A stretch of 64,000 bases of DNA, taken from positions 496,001 to 560,000 of the forward strand of contig OZ024753.1 of NCBI GenBank assembly GCA_964016885.1. The letters are read 5' to 3'. The translations under genes were made by a program, and so were the position numbers. The stretch comes from Eledone cirrhosa (taxonomy: Eukaryota). Shown here piece after piece: positions 4,052 to 64,000 of the stretch (position 1 is its first letter; the number at the start of each line of letters is the position of its first letter). A model generated the notes under the pieces. It saw only the letters and a program-made list of their open reading frames with translations, ran no database searches and was not told where the DNA came from.

Positions 4052-4268
4052 CCCTTTAGCATCTAAACCGGCCATATCTGGCCAGAATTCTCTCACCTCT
4101 TTCTGTTCAAACTGGCCATAACTGGCAGCTCTAAGTATGTTAAGATATTGTTCTCAAAATAAATATCAAAATCTTGTAGATTCAATAATATGTGAGACAA
4201 TTATGTAAGATAAAGCCTTTACCAAAAAAATACAAATGTATATATAGAGTAATGTAAATGCTAAAGGG
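4052..4268 (+). mobile_element. piggyBac-like MITE (about 200-220 bp), representative copy
   Basis: TIRs CCCTTTAGCAT(T/C)TA / TAAATGCTAAAGGG with TTAA on both sides. Other copies at about 1556-1748(-), 9747-9937, 14487-14707, 20190-20362, 21340-21594, 26006-26348, 26968-27148 and 37250-37455(-); fragments at about 6430, 8730 and 12790. Confidence 0.85.
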
Positions 4269-15987: not shown

Positions 15988-16102
15988 ACATATATATACA
16001 TACATATACATATATACATACATATATACATATACATATATACATACATATATACATATACTTACATACATATATACATATACTTACATACATACATATA
16101 CT

Positions 16103-16140
<38 letters not shown>

Positions 16141-16338
16141 CTTACATACATATATATATATATACTTACATACATACATATATATATATATATATACTTA
16201 CATACATATATATATATATATATACTTACATACATACATATATATATATATACTTACATACATATATATATATATATATACTTACATACATATATATATA
16301 TATATATACTTACATACATACATATATATATATATACT

Positions 16339-16370
<32 letters not shown>

Positions 16371-16920
16371 CTTACATACATACATATATATATATACTTA
16401 CATACATACATATATATATATACTTACATACATACATATATATATATATATATACTTACACATATACATATATATACTTACATATATACATATACATATA
16501 TATATATATACTTATACATATACATATATATATACTTACATATATACATATACATATATATATACTTACATATATACATATACATATATATATACTTACA
16601 TATATACATATACATACATACATATATATATATATATACTTACATACATATATATATATATACTTACATACATATATATATATATACTTACATACATATA
16701 TATATATATATATATATACTTACATACATACATATATATATATATATACTTATATATATATATATATATACTTACATATATATATACTTACATACATACA
16801 TATACATATATACATACATACATACATATACATATATACTTACATACATACATACATACATATATACTTACATACATACATATACATATACATATATATA
16901 TATATACATTATATATATAT
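15988..16920. repeat. Compound TA/TACA microsatellite with higher-order cttacatacata(ta)n units
   Basis: Directly visible. Confidence 0.95.
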
Positions 16921-17109
16921 AAGAGTATTAAAATAAGTATTAAAAGAGCACTTCCGTTGATCTTTATCATCACTACCATTACTACATGTAGCACCAGAGA
17001 TAATATGTTCTAGTTATCTATTCCTATGATAATACATAAAAGAAATGAGAATCTCTTAAAACAGCTGCATTGCTACAAGAAGGAAAATATTACAAGTAAT
17101 TTTACTTAC

Positions 17110-23541: not shown

Positions 23542-24954
23542 TAGATAAGACCATTATTGCTCCAATCAGTCTACTAATCCTCAGCAAACACTCTAAACCA
23601 AACACCAACCTGTATCCATGACTCCTGCCAAACAAACTATACTCTCCAAATTCGGCAAATCAAACACAGACCGCCCACCCTCTCAAACTCAGCTTACGCA
23701 ACAGGGCCACAATAACCAATGGGGAAGAGAGACAATATATATATATATATATATATTTATTAAAATAACAGATTAAAGTTTAAGCAAAGAATCGCTGCTT
23801 TCACCCTTAACAGGATCTTTTGACTTTTTTAGTTCCAGAAGATCCCATTAAGAGTGAAAGCAGCGATTCTTTGCTTAAACTCTAATCTGTTATTTTAATA
23901 AATATTTGCTCTACGGTTCTTATATATTTGATATATATTTATCCTTATCGAGCCCTCTTTGGATTTTAGTCTTCAAATTTATTATTATTACTATATATAT
24001 ATATAGGAAAATGTTTGACCCCGACGGCAGTACTCAAGCCGTTTCGACTCAAGTCCAGAAATAGCCGTCGAAACGGCTTGAGCTCTGCCGTCGGAGTCAA
24101 ACATTTTCCTATTACCCACTCTACTACCCTAAGTATTGAGTACTCTGGTGCGTTATGGTCCATCAGGTTCCTTACCACAACTCCTTCATTATATGTATGT
24201 ATATATATATATATATACATATATATAGCAGCAGTAAGTTTTATATAGCAAAGCAAGTTCATAACTTAGTTTTGATTCCTAATTAAAATTGCCATTACAT
24301 CATTTGTGTCCTTTAGAAAGGCTTAACTGTCTCCTTTCCAGTGTGACAGGCTTTTTACACCACAAATACACCACCTTTAAAATATAATAGATTTAAAATA
24401 TCATATCAAATATGAAATATAATAATACTGGGAACTGATGTTGGACTAATAAATGGCTTGATACTAGTCAATAATGAAGTTAGTAAATGTGGAATTAGGG
24501 ATGGTTTTAATAAAGACAAACATAGTTGAAGCAATACAGAAAATGCTGGTGGTTGGCTTGTTGGTTGGTTGGTTCTGAATTTGCAGACAGAAAATATAGG
24601 GTCTTGAGGGATTTACATTTGTTGTTAGAAATGTAATTTATTTGAAGCATGGTTTTTATTTAAATGCCAAATACTGTAGCCATTAAATGGCTTATTAAAT
24701 AAAAAAGAATTAACCAGTATATTTACTAATATATTTATAGAAATTCTTCAAAGCAAATATAACATAAAACTAAAATAGCATTTGATTTTGGCTTTGACAT
24801 GGACAGCTTTAATCAATATATTTGTTGAACCATCACTAAATTTTTGTAAAAGAATCTTTGTTTGAGCCATAATTTGCATTTTAAACATATTAACTATTAT
24901 ATAAATATATTTTTTAATAGTTCAATAAAACATTTATTAGATTTTGTATTTAAC

Positions 24955-32219: not shown

Positions 32220-32835
32220 ATATATTAAATATTCTGGAATTTGCTATCGAATCGGCTACCCTTAATGGATTTCCTTTTTCGGGTGAATTTTATCAGCAGA
32301 TCTCTGGGGTAGCGATGGGAACCAGAAATGGGTCCAAACTATGCCAACTTGTTTGTTGGCTACGTCAAAGCCCAGATCTTCTCCCAGTACGCTGGACCGA
32401 CTCCTGAGCTATACGGTCGTTATATCGACGACTGTATCGGCGCCACCTCTCTTTCACGAGAACAGCTCGACTGTTTTCTTTCTTTTTTCTAATCTTTCCA
32501 TCCTGCTCTCAATTTCACCGCCTCCGTCTCCGATTCTTCTGTCGCTTTTCTAGATATCTCTCTATCTATTAATCACTCTCACCACACCTTCTCTACTTCC
32601 ATCTTCATTAAACCAACAGACTCCCAATCTTACCTCGACTTCACCTCCTTCCATCCAACCTACACCAAACACTCCATACCCTATTCCCAATTCCCCCGTT
32701 TTCGTCGGCTCTGTAGTCAGGACGACGATTTCGAAACTCATGTCCCCTCAATGTATCTTATTTCTCATTCTTTCTTCTGATGAAAGAATAGCGTCCGAAA
32801 CGTTAAGACCCTCTTCTTGCTATACCAAGCGTTAA
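32220..32835 (+). mobile_element. Penelope-like element RT fragment with 3' hammerhead motif
   Basis: Manual translation across frameshifts gives GVAMGT..GPNYANLFVGY...YGRYIDDCIG...HPALNFT...FLDISLSI...KPTDSQSYLDFTSFHP...SIPYSQF.RFRRLCS, the diagnostic PLE RT/thumb motifs. Confidence 0.88.
32773..32808 (+). ncRNA. Minimal PLE-type hammerhead motif
   Basis: TCTT CTGATGA AAGAATAGCGTCC GAAA CG TT AAGA, with palindromic AACGTT and a weak stem II, at the 3' end of the Penelope RT fragment. Confidence 0.6.
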
Positions 32836-32836
32836 A

Positions 32837-32875
<39 letters not shown>

Positions 32876-32878
32876 ATT

Positions 32879-32929
32879 GGCTTCTACAGGACTAGAACTG
32901 TTTCATTCGGGAGAAATCATCAGGAAGCC
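32879..32929 (-). ncRNA. Type I hammerhead ribozyme motif
   Basis: Minus strand reads GGCTTC CTGATGA TTTCTCCCGAAT GAAA CAG TTCTAGTC CTG TA GAAGCC: 6-bp stem I, intact CUGAUGA/GAAA core, stem II TTC/GAA, stem III ACAG/CTGT, GUA cleavage triplet. Confidence 0.78.
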
Positions 32930-33052
32930 CTGATGATGTCTCTCGAATGAAACAGTTTTAGTCTTGTAGAAGCCATTTCTATATTAAATATTTATACTCT
33001 ATGTATTGAGAACTTTACTTACTGTGGTTACCCCCGATTGAACCTGGGATAA

Positions 33053-33089
<37 letters not shown>

Positions 33090-42202: not shown

Positions 42203-44099
42203 AACCTCCAGAATACACAAGGGGTTGGAATTGTGATAATATGATAATAGGTCACAATTTCAACCCCTTGTGTATTCTGGAGACCTTAGGTAGCGCTTTT
42301 GTTCCAAGTATGAACATAAATAAATCATATATTTCTGCTCTCTTCCTGATTTAGCACTATTTCCCTTTTTCACACCTACAGATATTGCCACATACATGGT
42401 TTGTCTTGTTTACTCTTTATTTTTGATTTTTTTTGGTTTACTTGGCCTACCTTTATTTTCTGTATCTATCCTTTGTGATCCCTTATTTTTGAACTACTGA
42501 AGAAGGGGTAAAGCCCGACACATTGATTTTTCTTTCCCCTTTTCCATATAAAGCGTGAAACTAATAAGACTTTTTGTACCTCTGTTTGTTGTTTCCTTGA
42601 ACTATGTATGTATGTGTGAGTGAGTGTGTGTATGTATGTATGTGAGTGTGCATGCGTATTTTTTTATGTATTTATTACAATATAAAATAAACAATGGTAT
42701 TACTATTTTATATTCAAATAATACTGAAATATAGAATGAGCTGCTATTGAATCTATTTATAACTGTTACGATCTTCATTTCAGATAAACAAAATGACATA
42801 TATAATATTATTCTTCCACACAATAAATATATATATATAAGTAAGTTTATCCTGGGTTCAATCAGGGGTAACTATAGTAAGTAAGGTACTCAATACATAG
42901 CAGAGTATAAATATTTAACATAGAAATAGCTTCTACAGGACTAGAACAGTTCTAGTCCTGTAGAAGTTATGTCTATATTAAATAAAATTTCATTCTGATG
43001 AGCGATTTCGGACGTCTGTGTTGAGCTCGTCTGTCTTCGTGAAACCTTTGGATGGAATAATTGTTTATTACATAACTAAATAGCTTACACAGAGCACTCT
43101 CCTTTCCTTTACCCTTCCTATGGAAATACTTATATATATATATATAACATTTAATCTTTTTTACATAATGGAGATTATGCTTAGTTGATGTCATTACAAA
43201 TCAATGTAATTTAGATACGTGCATGATCTTGATATTTTTAATCTTGAAAATCTAAAGTAATCGAATCGTTCATGCTAATCTTTGACAAGTTTAATAAAAA
43301 TTTGTGAAATTTGAGTACGATTAAAGCCGAACACGAAACTACAGTTATGCCCCTTCGCAGTAAATGACTTCTAACCTTTTAAGAAGCAAAAGTTAACATG
43401 ATACAGTTATGTTAAATATTTTTGTCAAAATTCAGTATAAAAATCAGTTAAATCAGATTTGTAAAAACCCTTGCAATGAAAAAAAAAATTGAAATACGAA
43501 TTTGGTGTTTAATAGTGAAGCTATTATAGAAAAGAATAAATGGTATTTATTAAGGCTTTCTTGGTGTCTGCTACTTCAATGTCATAAATCATTTATTCAA
43601 TTAAAATATATGTGGCATAAAGGATACAACAACAGCTATTATGACAACCTAACTAATAACATGAATAAATTTTATAAATTACATACAGATAAATTACGCA
43701 GTTGGGTTGGAAGTGGTATCAAGACTGGTGGGTGTAGGATCAGTTGGCTGGAATTTGTGGAGAACATGGTACTACTTAACTCATCAGAGGGTGATCTCCA
43801 ACATGCAAGAATCACTTGGATTTTCCTCAAAGAAAAACCAAGATTCGTTTGATAAGAATAACTAGGAAATTCAGGAGCTCATTGTAAGGAAGAGGTCAGC
43901 ATCCAAGCCTATTTGACTCCGCCTTTCTATTCTCAGAAGAAGGTAGCCTTTCGTTTCGCTTGTGGTGAGTTCCAGTGCAAACTTCAGGAAATTTAAAACA
44001 AGTGATAGCTTGGTCTTACGGAGAAAATCCAAGCATATGTAGATACCGGAAATTATCAGTTGTTCCATCAAGTCTTGAAAGCAGCTTACGGTCCATTGT

Positions 44100-50193: not shown

Positions 50194-50248
<55 letters not shown>

Positions 50249-50326
50249 TTCCGGGTTGAATCGGAGATAACCACAGTAAGTAAGGTACTCAATACATAGC
50301 AGAGTATAAAAGTTTTAATATAGATG

Positions 50327-50377
50327 AAATTCTACAGGATTAGAACTGTTTCATTCTTGAGAAATCATCAGGAATCT
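50327..50377 (-). ncRNA. Type I hammerhead ribozyme motif (same family as 32879-32929)
   Basis: Minus strand reads AGATTC CTGATGA TTTCTCAAGAAT GAAA CAG TTCTAATC CTG TA GAATTT. Stem I pairing is retained despite substitutions. Confidence 0.75.
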
Positions 50378-50791
50378 GACTGTCTCAATAAATGTGGTGG
50401 TATTTATATCTTTTATGGTAGTAGGAGAGGGGGAGTGGGATGGTTGGAGGGCATTGGTTGAAAGAAAAGGGAATTCATTAAAAGCTAATTCTTTAAAGCT
50501 ATAATTTATATTTAGAGTGACAAAGGCAGAAAGAATTCTATAAACAAGTTCAAATTGGGGTGCCACTCCTTAATTTTAAGTTTCTCTTAAGCCAACAATG
50601 TCTATATTTCAGGTGTCTATAAGATGGTTGGGGGTCATAAAGGATAAAGATCCCATAACTCCTTGTGGCTTCGTAGAGGCTCCGTCATACGACGTGTCTA
50701 TGGCACTTTTTAAACCTGGCGGGGCCCAACCCTCTTCAGGTTTGAACACAGCCGATTTTTCTATAGAGGAAGAATCGACTCCAGTACTGGA

Positions 50792-52333: not shown

Positions 52334-52454
52334 TATATATATATGTATGATGAAATACCAATGATGGTTGGAAAATCACTGACGAAGGACTATTTTTATC
52401 ATATGTAACCCATGTGCAACCACCTCAGTATTCTTCTTTCTTCTCATGTTTTTT

Positions 52455-53096
<642 letters not shown>

Positions 53097-54929: not shown

Positions 54930-55125
54930 CTATGATCTTCGGGAAATCACTGATGAGGGACTTATTTTATTACATGTTATCCATGTGCTACCTGCAGTAT
55001 TTTTCTCTATATTTTAATACATATATTTACCACTGCGATTCTGTGTTTTTTTCTCTTCTCTTACTGTTCCCCCATTCTCTCTGTTTCTCCCCCTCTGTCA
55101 TGTCCGTTAACTCTTCCTCACACTT

Positions 55126-60849
<5,724 letters not shown>

Positions 60850-60850
<1 letters not shown>

Positions 60851-61540
60851 TTCTCTTTTACTCTTTTACCTGTTTCAGCCATCCGGCTGAGGCCATGCTG
60901 GGGCACCGCCCTTGTTGCTACACATTTTATCTCCAGCCTGTATAGGTTGGCCACTGGTGTAGGAGGGAGTTTGTTGCTGCTGCCCTTAGGTTTCCCTCGT
61001 GTCTTGCTGTGGGCTCATCCGGGATCCTGGATAACAAGGTGTCGAGATGTTTCTTAAAGACATCCACCTCCACGTCATGCAAGTCTCGCAGATGCCTCGG
61101 CAGCCTGTTGAAGAGTTGAGGGCCCTTGAATCCCAGGCTATTGCAATACCTGCTCCTTATTCTAGATGTGGAAGACGGGACCTTTGGCACCACACAGTGA
61201 CGTCCTGTTCGACGGTTGGTCCAGCTCCCAATGCCAAAGTTTGGTGCTAGTCCCTCCAGGATTTTCCACATGTAGATCACTGCGTATCTCTCCCGTCTTC
61301 GCTCCAAGGAGTAGAGGTTCAGTTCCTTCAGCCTCTCCCAGTAGCTTGTCTCCGCTCATCTTGGCAATCCTCTTGGTGTAGCTTCGCTGGATTGCCTCAA
61401 GCTCTGTGGTTAGTTTGACACTATGGGGTGACCACAGCTGGGAGCAGTAGTCCAGGCGGCTTAGGACAAAAGTCCTCCACAGTGTCAACATGGTGTCTCG
61501 ATCTCTTGTAAGGAAAGTCCCTCAAGATCCAGCCAGCGAA
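60850..61540 (-). mobile_element. CR1/L2-like LINE 3' fragment (ORF2 C-terminus, frameshifted) between two TA arrays
   Basis: ORFs 61162..61491 ([12 protein letters not shown]...LEAIQRSYTK) and 60927..61307 (ERRRERY..IYMWKILEG...GPQLFNRLP...IPDEPT). The 3' end reads ...ggctgaaacaggtaaaagagtaaaagag. Confidence 0.88.
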
Positions 61541-61556
61541 TCGTCTACATGCTGTC

Positions 61557-64000
<2,444 letters not shown>

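What the first reader, a model, noticed from the sequence alone, without database searches (positions are those of the whole stretch)
32879..33050. Hammerhead-ribozyme retroelement family (retrozyme/PLE-like) with head-to-head ribozyme copies
Seen: a complete type I hammerhead on the minus strand (32879-32929) abuts a plus-strand copy (about 32929-32974) that lacks its 5' stem I strand and runs into a roughly 75-nt tail (...gtattgagaactttacttactgtggttacccccgattgaacctgggataaac). The same tail plus ribozyme recurs at 42845-42985 and 50245-50377, each beside a TA/CA microsatellite. Known: Penelope-like elements and non-autonomous retrozymes carry type I hammerheads in terminal repeats that are often inverted. 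Inference: this is an abundant, possibly undescribed, self-cleaving element family in this genome. It sits directly next to a Penelope RT fragment that could represent the type of mobilising partner.
Basis: partly seen in the sequence, partly recalled or inferred. Interest (0 to 1): 0.75.

Follow-up and report, generated by a model that had tools for sequence, protein, structure and literature searches.

The report
Penelope ribozyme stubs joined head-to-head
This back-to-back pair of ribozyme motifs is a short stub of a very abundant Penelope-type jumping gene, and it likely formed when two DNA copies each ran off the start of the element's RNA and were joined, which would help explain how these elements make their mirror-image ends.

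Summary
The sequence is real: a complete type I hammerhead fold (32879-32929, minus) meets a plus arm that lacks its 5' stem I strand and carries the tail. Of the two other copies, one has no catalytic core. It is not a stand-alone retrozyme. The unit is the first ~135 nt of a Hydra-clade Penelope-like element (PLE) with intact 713-aa ORFs in this 3-Gb genome (at least 17,133 tails; 4,054 head-to-head core junctions). The neighbouring RT fragment belongs to another PLE family with its own ribozyme motif. Stubs stop sharply at stem I, 29-32 nt behind a TATA box, often with an untemplated G (26 of 58), and exactly one arm carries the tail (69 of 74 pairs). Best reading: both nicked target strands prime on the uncleaved, likely capped RNA at two fixed sites, run off its 5' end and are joined. 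Cleavage and expression are untested. The scan noted this run-off model before on other DNA of this genome. Added here: 11 loci with +172-to-+1 jumps, and a satellite of at least 354 kb built from a 78-bp ribozyme unit.

The parts
32873..32929 (-). Short arm: complete type I hammerhead fold (32879-32929 = element positions +1 to +51), ending a few nt past stem I in the GA/TA repeat; predicted cut between 32885 and 32884
   Evidence: 50 of 52 nt identical to ORF-linked copy L308
32929..33054 (+). Long arm: core to stem I 3' strand (32930-32974) plus tail ending GGATAAAC; lacks the 5' stem I strand; stem II and III each carry a change
   Evidence: 113 of 124 nt identical to ORF-linked copy L308
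32924..32930 (.). Head-to-head junction GGAAGCC|CTGATGA; the same junction recurs at other loci; 1-2 nt microhomology inferred
   Evidence: listing (e.g. C1:17028581, 23261022, 26514663)
32836..32876 (.). (TA)n(GA)n target microsatellite, left flank
33053..33089 (.). (CA)n(TA)n target microsatellite, right flank
32231..32774 (+). Broken RT fragment of a different, non-Hydra PLE family (GVAMG / YANLF / RYIDD); not the parent of the finding
   Evidence: no Pfam hit
32777..32812 (+). That family's own minimal hammerhead motif (CTGATGA...GAAAC GTT); stem II is damaged relative to the copy in L002
42845..42984 (.). Second family insertion: long arm 42845-42951 (-) and short arm 42945-42984 (+), both starting in stem III; no catalytic core
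50245..50637 (-). Third insertion, AGATTC-type subfamily: 260 nt of upstream pLTR with TATAAATA (50401-50408), complete hammerhead (50327-50377), tail

Best explanation
The feature is a stub insertion of a Hydra-clade Penelope-like retrotransposon, likely made of two run-off cDNAs from the 5' end of the element's RNA, joined head to head. Shown: full elements read pLTR (TATA box, ribozyme, tail), a 713-aa RT/GIY-YIG ORF, a 2-3.6-kb spacer (TA/TG-rich in the part read), then pLTR. Stubs sit in (TA)n/(CA)n, have two fixed 3' ends (about +70 and +135) and a sharp 5' wall at stem I. Inferred: transcription starts at the first base of stem I, so the ribozyme is the capped 5' end of the RNA. The element's enzyme nicks both target strands and primes one at +135 and the other at +70 on the same, uncleaved RNA. 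Each cDNA runs off the cap, often gaining a C that reads as an extra G, and the two 3' ends are joined by short microhomology. Longer and tandem copies would arise when a cDNA jumps to a downstream RNA end or is primed in the 3' pLTR of a read-through transcript. The ribozyme is predicted to be weak as a monomer and to cut as a dimer or with protein help.
For: Parent: 12 of the 16 regions fetched around long-frame RT hits gave a 713-aa ORF from the first Met, 97.3-100% identical, with RWR, DKT, CxCx5C, CxxC, CxH and C-terminal VY..YIG. The window's own subfamily runs TATA-ribozyme-tail-ORF in L308 (ORF 77% to the young one over 158 aa). 5' wall: 71 of 75 non-passenger arms end within 11 nt upstream of C3 (52 at 0-8 nt, 18 inside core or stem II, 1 at 11 nt) and 4 run further. 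TATAAATAY lies 35-38 nt before C3 in 93 of 96 copies, across divergent subfamilies, i.e. 29-32 nt before stem I; the commonest flanking 7-mers are CCAGATT and TCAGATT (the Inr consensus and -30 spacing are recalled). Extra G: the base before a complete stem I in microsatellite-abutting copies is G 26, C 14, T 13, A 5 of 58 sites (hand count of the 100 rows listed of 604; script on L271-L300: G 7 of 17). Donor-type copies have C in 92 of 94. Two ends: 98 of 170 arms end <=35 nt after the cut site, 67 at >=76 nt and 5 between. One tail in 69 of 74 pairs, none in 5, both in 0. Same template: loop II identical in 44 of 60 pairs against 13% across loci. The short arm holds stem I that the long arm lacks in 9 of 45 pairs, as in the window, with the reverse in 14. 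In vitro a PLE enzyme nicks and extends both strands from two internal starts that define the tail, on uncleaved RNA (PMC11167929, parts 1-2 of 4). Stem I covaries (G-C/A-U, C-G/A-U; 43 cells with two-sided change, 0 of 500 shuffles). Stem III is an imperfect palindrome: duplex -12.8 against hairpin -1.4 kcal/mol.
Against: No RNA data: start site, cap, expression and cleavage are all inferred. RTs can add untemplated C without a cap (recalled), so the G supports run-off more than capping. 21 of 45 short-centre pairs had neither arm matching my strict stem I pattern. The 5' end call was ungapped and lacked a reference for the 7-bp stem I subfamily. Later asymmetric deletion at palindrome centres could mimic independent stops. 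Arm concordance fits snap-back equally well. Covariation rests on two pairs and few events, stems II and III show none, and pair-level shuffle measures were not significant. The ribozyme fold is not favoured in a 260-nt context of the young subfamily (stem I probability about 0). No intact ORF was found for the window's exact subfamily. D. virilis Penelope uses a TATA-less internal promoter with an intron (PMC2377424, passages), so this layout is not general.
Confidence: 0.7

Rival explanations
1. Snap-back or self-priming: one cDNA (or an antisense RNA) folds back near the ribozyme and copies itself, giving the palindrome; centres were later trimmed.
For: Arms share subfamily and private variants. 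Self-priming on an antisense template was proposed for PLE palindromes (PMC3846280, passages).
Against: Solo copies stop at the same base with an extra G and no partner arm. In 9 of 45 pairs the tail-less arm holds 5' sequence that the tailed arm lacks, so neither arm can be a pure copy of the other without a later deletion. Junctions vary and some carry inserts.
Confidence: 0.13
2. The ~135-nt unit is an independent non-autonomous retrozyme that spreads through a self-cleaved circular RNA.
For: High copy number and a conserved core. One derived 78-bp tandem array of at least 354 kb. Head-to-tail +172/+1 junctions at 11 loci.
Against: Stubs lack the promoter and match the ORF-linked 5' end. 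Ends fall at stem I and the two tail sites, not at the cut site: about 10 of 48 listed sites start at the cut site against about 12 at a control TA in loop III (hand count, 100 of 221 rows). Same-strand spacings under 1.5 kb were single, non-recurring values. Described retrozymes are 150-450-bp tandem repeats (PMC7229834, passages).
Confidence: 0.07
3. The 5' wall is a structural stall of the RT at the base of stem I, or a 3' splice site, not the RNA's start.
For: The wall coincides with the helix boundary. The young subfamily has a pyrimidine tract plus AG there. In D. virilis an intron ends at helix I (PMC4209133, Results).
Against: TATA spacing is held across subfamilies. The extra G precedes the AG and is followed upstream by target DNA, not by a constant exon. 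The window's subfamily has TCGG, not AG, at that place. An RT reaching this point has already displaced the 3' strand of stem I (inference).
Confidence: 0.1

Closest known systems
Hydra clade of C-terminal EN+ Penelope-like elements (Craig et al. 2021, PMC8557442; passages, section 11, supplement part 2 of 59 read)
   Same: Single ORF with RW[KR], DKT, CxCx5C, CxxC, CxH and C-terminal GIY-YIG; (TA)n target; hammerhead of the ctgatgaT...Tgaa type listed for Penelope-1 to -6_HM; inverted 5'-truncated copy with a tail at one end.
   Different: Its ribozyme differs entirely from that listed for Hydra-1_oBim. Ribozyme-to-ribozyme length is 4.8-6.3 kb (not <3 kb) because of a long microsatellite-rich 3' spacer. 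The tail is about 60-70 nt (not 30-40). Stem III has an 8-nt loop. Most copies are promoterless stubs.
Poseidon element PAc of Anolis carolinensis (Frangieh et al. 2024, PMC11167929; parts 1-2 of 4 read)
   Same: Two internal RT start sites downstream of the ribozyme define the tail; both strands extended; uncleaved RNA is the template; AT-rich targets.
   Different: There the ORF starts inside the ribozyme; here the first Met is at +182. The parts read do not describe a run-off end at the ribozyme or head-to-head joining.
Metazoan non-LTR retrozymes (PMC7229834, passages; bioRxiv 10.64898/2026.07.22.740005, part 1 of 5)
   Same: Type I hammerhead, no coding capacity in the stubs, PLE origin; axolotl HHR_Amex2 also has a U-U at the base of stem II and cleaves weakly, better as a dimer.
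   Different: Window copies are inverted pairs or solos, not tandem repeats. Only the derived C28 array is tandem, and its 78-bp unit is shorter than the 150-450 bp described.
Adineta vaga Penelope pLTRs (Arkhipova et al. 2013, PMC3846280; passages)
   Same: Putative TATA plus Inr in the pLTR, inverted pLTR, optional tail, palindromic junctions.
   Different: Interpreted there as self-priming on an antisense template; the data here favour a sense template copied twice.

Membership tests
Hydra-clade PLE (parent element) | Single ORF with RT and C-terminal GIY-YIG endonuclease | tested here: met
   713 aa; YRDD; VY...YIG at frame positions 631-649; Pfam GIY-YIG E=0.019, below the curated cut-off
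Hydra-clade PLE (parent element) | RWK motif, DKT in place of DKG, GxKF/Y not conserved | tested here: met
   RWR (variant of RWK) at 83, DKT at 161, no GxK[FY] (criteria)
Hydra-clade PLE (parent element) | CxCX5C linker; CxxC and CxH in the EN | tested here: met
   CNCLNKEAC, CDLC, CPNC, CMH
Hydra-clade PLE (parent element) | CCHH motif absent from the EN | not tested
   No alignment to reference PLE ENs was available
Hydra-clade PLE (parent element) | Canonical hammerhead in the pLTR; insertion into (TA)n | tested here: met
   format matches Hydra entries in File S2
Hydra-clade PLE (parent element) | Generally shorter than 3 kb | tested here: not met
   4.8-6.3 kb between ribozymes; a descriptive trait, explained by the long 3' spacer
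Hydra-clade PLE (parent element) | Groups with Hydra RTs in a phylogeny | not tested
   Reference proteins could not be brought into the tools; the assignment rests on motifs
PLE insertion structure | Inverted 5'-truncated copy and a tail on one end only | tested here: met
   69 of 74 pairs with one tail, 0 with two
Type I hammerhead ribozyme | CUGANGA and GAAA core, NUH site, three stems | tested here: met
   93% of cells paired in 59 copies; copies were picked by core pattern, so core conservation is built in
Type I hammerhead ribozyme | Covariation of helices | tested here: inconclusive
   Two compensatory pairs in stem I, none in stems II and III
Type I hammerhead ribozyme | Match to Rfam hammerhead models | tested here: not met
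   No hammerhead row for the region at E<=10
Type I hammerhead ribozyme | Self-cleavage | not testable with these tools
   No genomic sign that cleaved RNA was copied
Non-LTR retrozyme | Tandem repeats of 150-450 bp, each with a hammerhead | tested here: not met
   Window copies and sampled loci are inverted pairs or solos; one 78-bp array elsewhere
Non-LTR retrozyme | Expressed as linear and circular monomer RNA | not testable with these tools
   No RNA run was available to test it

The most novel reading that the evidence does not exclude
Hydra-type Penelope elements use a retrovirus-like strong-stop step. The ribozyme is the capped 5' end of the RNA, and both target strands make short run-off cDNAs. 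The outcome depends on what those cDNAs do next: joining gives head-to-head stubs, and jumping to a downstream RNA end gives tandem pLTRs (11 loci keep a +172-to-+1 jump, often with the extra G). Repeated jumping can seed ribozyme satellites, such as the 78-bp array of at least 354 kb. This would explain inverted ends, tails, partial tandems and the birth of retrozymes with one mechanism.
Probability: 0.4. Interest if true: 0.78.

Novelty: new member of a known kind. Interest (0 to 1): 0.55.

Why it matters
How PLEs form tandem and inverted pLTRs is stated as open (PMC8557442 and PMC2377424, passages), and the one published idea I read invokes an antisense template (PMC3846280). Thousands of stubs with fixed ends, a TATA-spaced wall and an untemplated G give a genomic read-out of template strand, RNA start and priming sites. 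The young 713-aa copies make this directly testable in vitro. The element class and layout themselves are known.

Tried and rejected
Rfam scans: only microsatellite- and hairpin-driven miRNA matches, treated as chance. The repeat finder was swamped by TA arrays. Pfam found nothing for the window's RT pieces. Long inverted pairs were mostly unrelated insertions or broken ORF pieces. 19 of 94 sampled 30-mer matches were a core-less passenger fragment in another repeat and were dropped before the 5' end count. Enrichment of 5' ends at the cleavage site: not seen. The protein Atlas gave no result. Literature searches found no paper on this family, on cap-G or strong-stop products in PLEs, or on a cephalopod hammerhead satellite. 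Subscription papers, Repbase and Dfam are not covered, bioRxiv supplements were closed, and only part 2 of 59 of the Craig supplement was read, so prior cataloguing of the family is not excluded. The host lineage was not determined by my calls; earlier scan notes call it cephalopod or octopus.

Full report
Observation. The minus strand of 32879-32929 holds every element of a type I hammerhead: a 6-bp stem I, CUGAUGA, a 3-bp stem II flanked by U and U, GAAA, a 4-bp stem III with an 8-nt loop, and GUA before the 3' stem I strand. The plus arm begins at the core, lacks the 5' stem I strand and continues into the tail to 33054. Rfam does not list it as a hammerhead. The copy at 42845-42984 has no core. 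The copy at 50245-50637 is longer than reported and keeps a TATA box.

Abundance. The window lies in a 3.0-Gb genome. An exact 30-mer of the ribozyme occurs 5,881 times; 19 of 94 sampled matches were a passenger fragment in another repeat. An exact tail 22-mer occurs 17,133 times, and two cores meet head to head within 12 nt at 4,054 sites. Reversed-pattern controls gave 0, 0 and 1. These are exact-match lower bounds. Sampled copies mostly sit in (TA)n or (CA)n.

Parent element. A minority of copies extend upstream into a pLTR and ORF remnants. An RT search gave 108 scored matches, many in long open frames. Of 16 regions fetched around such hits, 12 gave a 713-aa ORF, 97.3-100% identical. The layout is pLTR with ribozyme and tail, ORF, a 2-3.6-kb spacer, pLTR, often with an inverted copy. 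The motifs are those that Craig et al. give for the Hydra clade (PMC8557442 section 11), and the U-flanked stem II matches their Hydra ribozyme table, though not Hydra-1_oBim. No phylogeny was run. The window's subfamily is older. In L308 it runs from TATA box through ribozyme and tail into the ORF, with 113 of 124 nt identical to the window's long arm; I found no intact ORF for it. The RT fragment beside the finding is another PLE family. It aligns poorly to the parent, has its own ribozyme motif, and that family's end turns up in 8 of 300 sampled loci, which fits a shared microsatellite target.

Ends. 3' ends are bimodal: 98 of 170 arms stop within 35 nt after the cut site, 67 at 76 nt or more and 5 between. 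In 74 head-to-head pairs, 69 have one tail, 5 none and 0 two. This matches the two internal RT starts and two-strand extension shown in vitro for an anole PLE (PMC11167929, parts 1-2). 5' ends form a wall: 71 of 75 arms stop within 11 nt upstream of C3. In copies that keep upstream sequence, TATAAATAY sits 35-38 nt before C3 in 93 of 96, or 29-32 nt before stem I. Donor-type copies have C before stem I in 92 of 94. Microsatellite-abutting stubs have G in 26 of 58, C in 14, T in 13 and A in 5 (hand count; 7 of 17 by script). That G comes from neither donor nor target. I read this as run-off from the RNA's 5' end, likely a cap; the -30 spacing, the Inr consensus and the cap-G signature are recalled knowledge.

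Mechanism. The two arms come from one template or one source: loop II agrees in 44 of 60 pairs against 13% across loci. That fits both twin priming and snap-back. Twin priming is preferred for two reasons: solos stop at the same base, and in 9 of 45 short-centre pairs the tail-less arm holds stem I that the tailed arm lacks. The reverse holds in 14, both arms have it in 1 and neither matched in 21. Later deletion at palindrome centres could still produce this. The copied RNA was uncleaved: stubs span the cut site, and 5' ends at the cut site (about 10 of 48 listed sites) are no more frequent than at a control TA in loop III (about 12; hand count). Stem I shows two compensatory pairs and stems II and III none. 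Stem III pairs far better between two molecules than within one, in line with dimeric, weak PLE ribozymes (PMC4209133, Results and Discussion). A U-U at the base of stem II is compatible with weak cleavage in axolotl (PMC7229834, passages). Cleavage here is untested.

Jumps and a satellite. Among 17 loci of the window's subfamily that read past the tail, 8 join position about +172 directly to +1, often through an extra G. A second search added 3 more: 6 of 30 loci examined, 3 already seen; 18 were inverted-tail junctions and 6 other. These look like a run-off cDNA that jumped to a downstream RNA end; a small circle or a third priming site is not excluded. The same search exposed an array on contig C28 of a 78-bp unit (about -14 to +64 of the young subfamily). 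It starts with a normal inverted long arm in (TA)n, has 1,287 anchors in the first 101 kb, and is present in all 10 probes out to 354 kb and absent at 404 kb. 958 units in that 101 kb keep the core, and 926 of them keep at least 5 of 6 stem I pairs.

Comparison and verdict. Inverted truncated copies with a one-sided tail are typical of PLEs, TATA and Inr motifs in pLTRs have been noted, and retrozymes have been tied to PLE pLTRs. Ten literature searches found no report of this family or of cap-marked run-off stubs in PLEs, with the limits given under Tried and rejected. I wrote the run-off reading down before looking at scan notes. Those notes show the scan reached the same model on other DNA of this genome; they are not independent support. 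Confidence: about 0.93 that the stubs are Hydra-type PLE 5' ends, and 0.7 for the twin run-off mechanism. Interest 0.55.

Noticed in passing
G000:C28:30496770 to at least 30851000 (L358:9063 onward, L348, L349, L359-L376): A satellite of at least 354 kb made of a 78-bp unit that is almost only this family's hammerhead (about 4,500 units by length; 96% mean identity). It begins with a normal inverted, tailed PLE arm in (TA)n and borders other satellites. The unit is shorter than the retrozyme monomers I read of. The right edge was not mapped (between 30851000 and 30900001).
   Followed up: partly
L301-L304, L306, L307, L313, L316, L329, L331, L345: Head-to-tail junctions joining element position about +172 (just before the start codon) to +1, often with an extra G; seen only in the GGCTTC-type subfamily.
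   Followed up: partly
L031-L035, L039, L042 and others (19 of 94 sampled matches): A ribozyme fragment lacking C3 is carried inside another young repeat with near-identical flanks; that host repeat was not identified.
   Followed up: no
L240-L255, between ORF stop and 3' pLTR: Young intact elements carry a 2-3.6-kb spacer; the 1.5 kb read in L240 is mostly TA/TG/CA repeat. The element may spread its own target sequence, and inverted arms can end in this spacer (L043).
   Followed up: partly
window 23753-23905: A palindromic insert of another repeat family beside (TA)n; similar sequence in 21 of 300 loci.
   Followed up: no
window 52379-52450 and 54950-55030: Two related repeats beginning with a CTGAYGA half-core next to TA arrays, without the usual GAAA spacing; found in 11 and 12 of 300 loci.
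   Followed up: no
window 42995-43130: A third ribozyme-like motif (CTGATGAG...GAAAC) directly after the second insertion, from another repeat family seen in 8 of 300 loci.
   Followed up: no
window 55126-64000, 15990-16921, 52455-53096: Very long degenerate TA/TATG arrays; the first is at least 8.9 kb and runs off the window end.
   Followed up: no
L061:7614-8177, L062:811-1901, L191:9299-9799: ORF pieces with Hydra-like motifs from other families lie directly after the tail of this family's stubs, consistent with nested insertion into the flanking (TA)n.
   Followed up: partly
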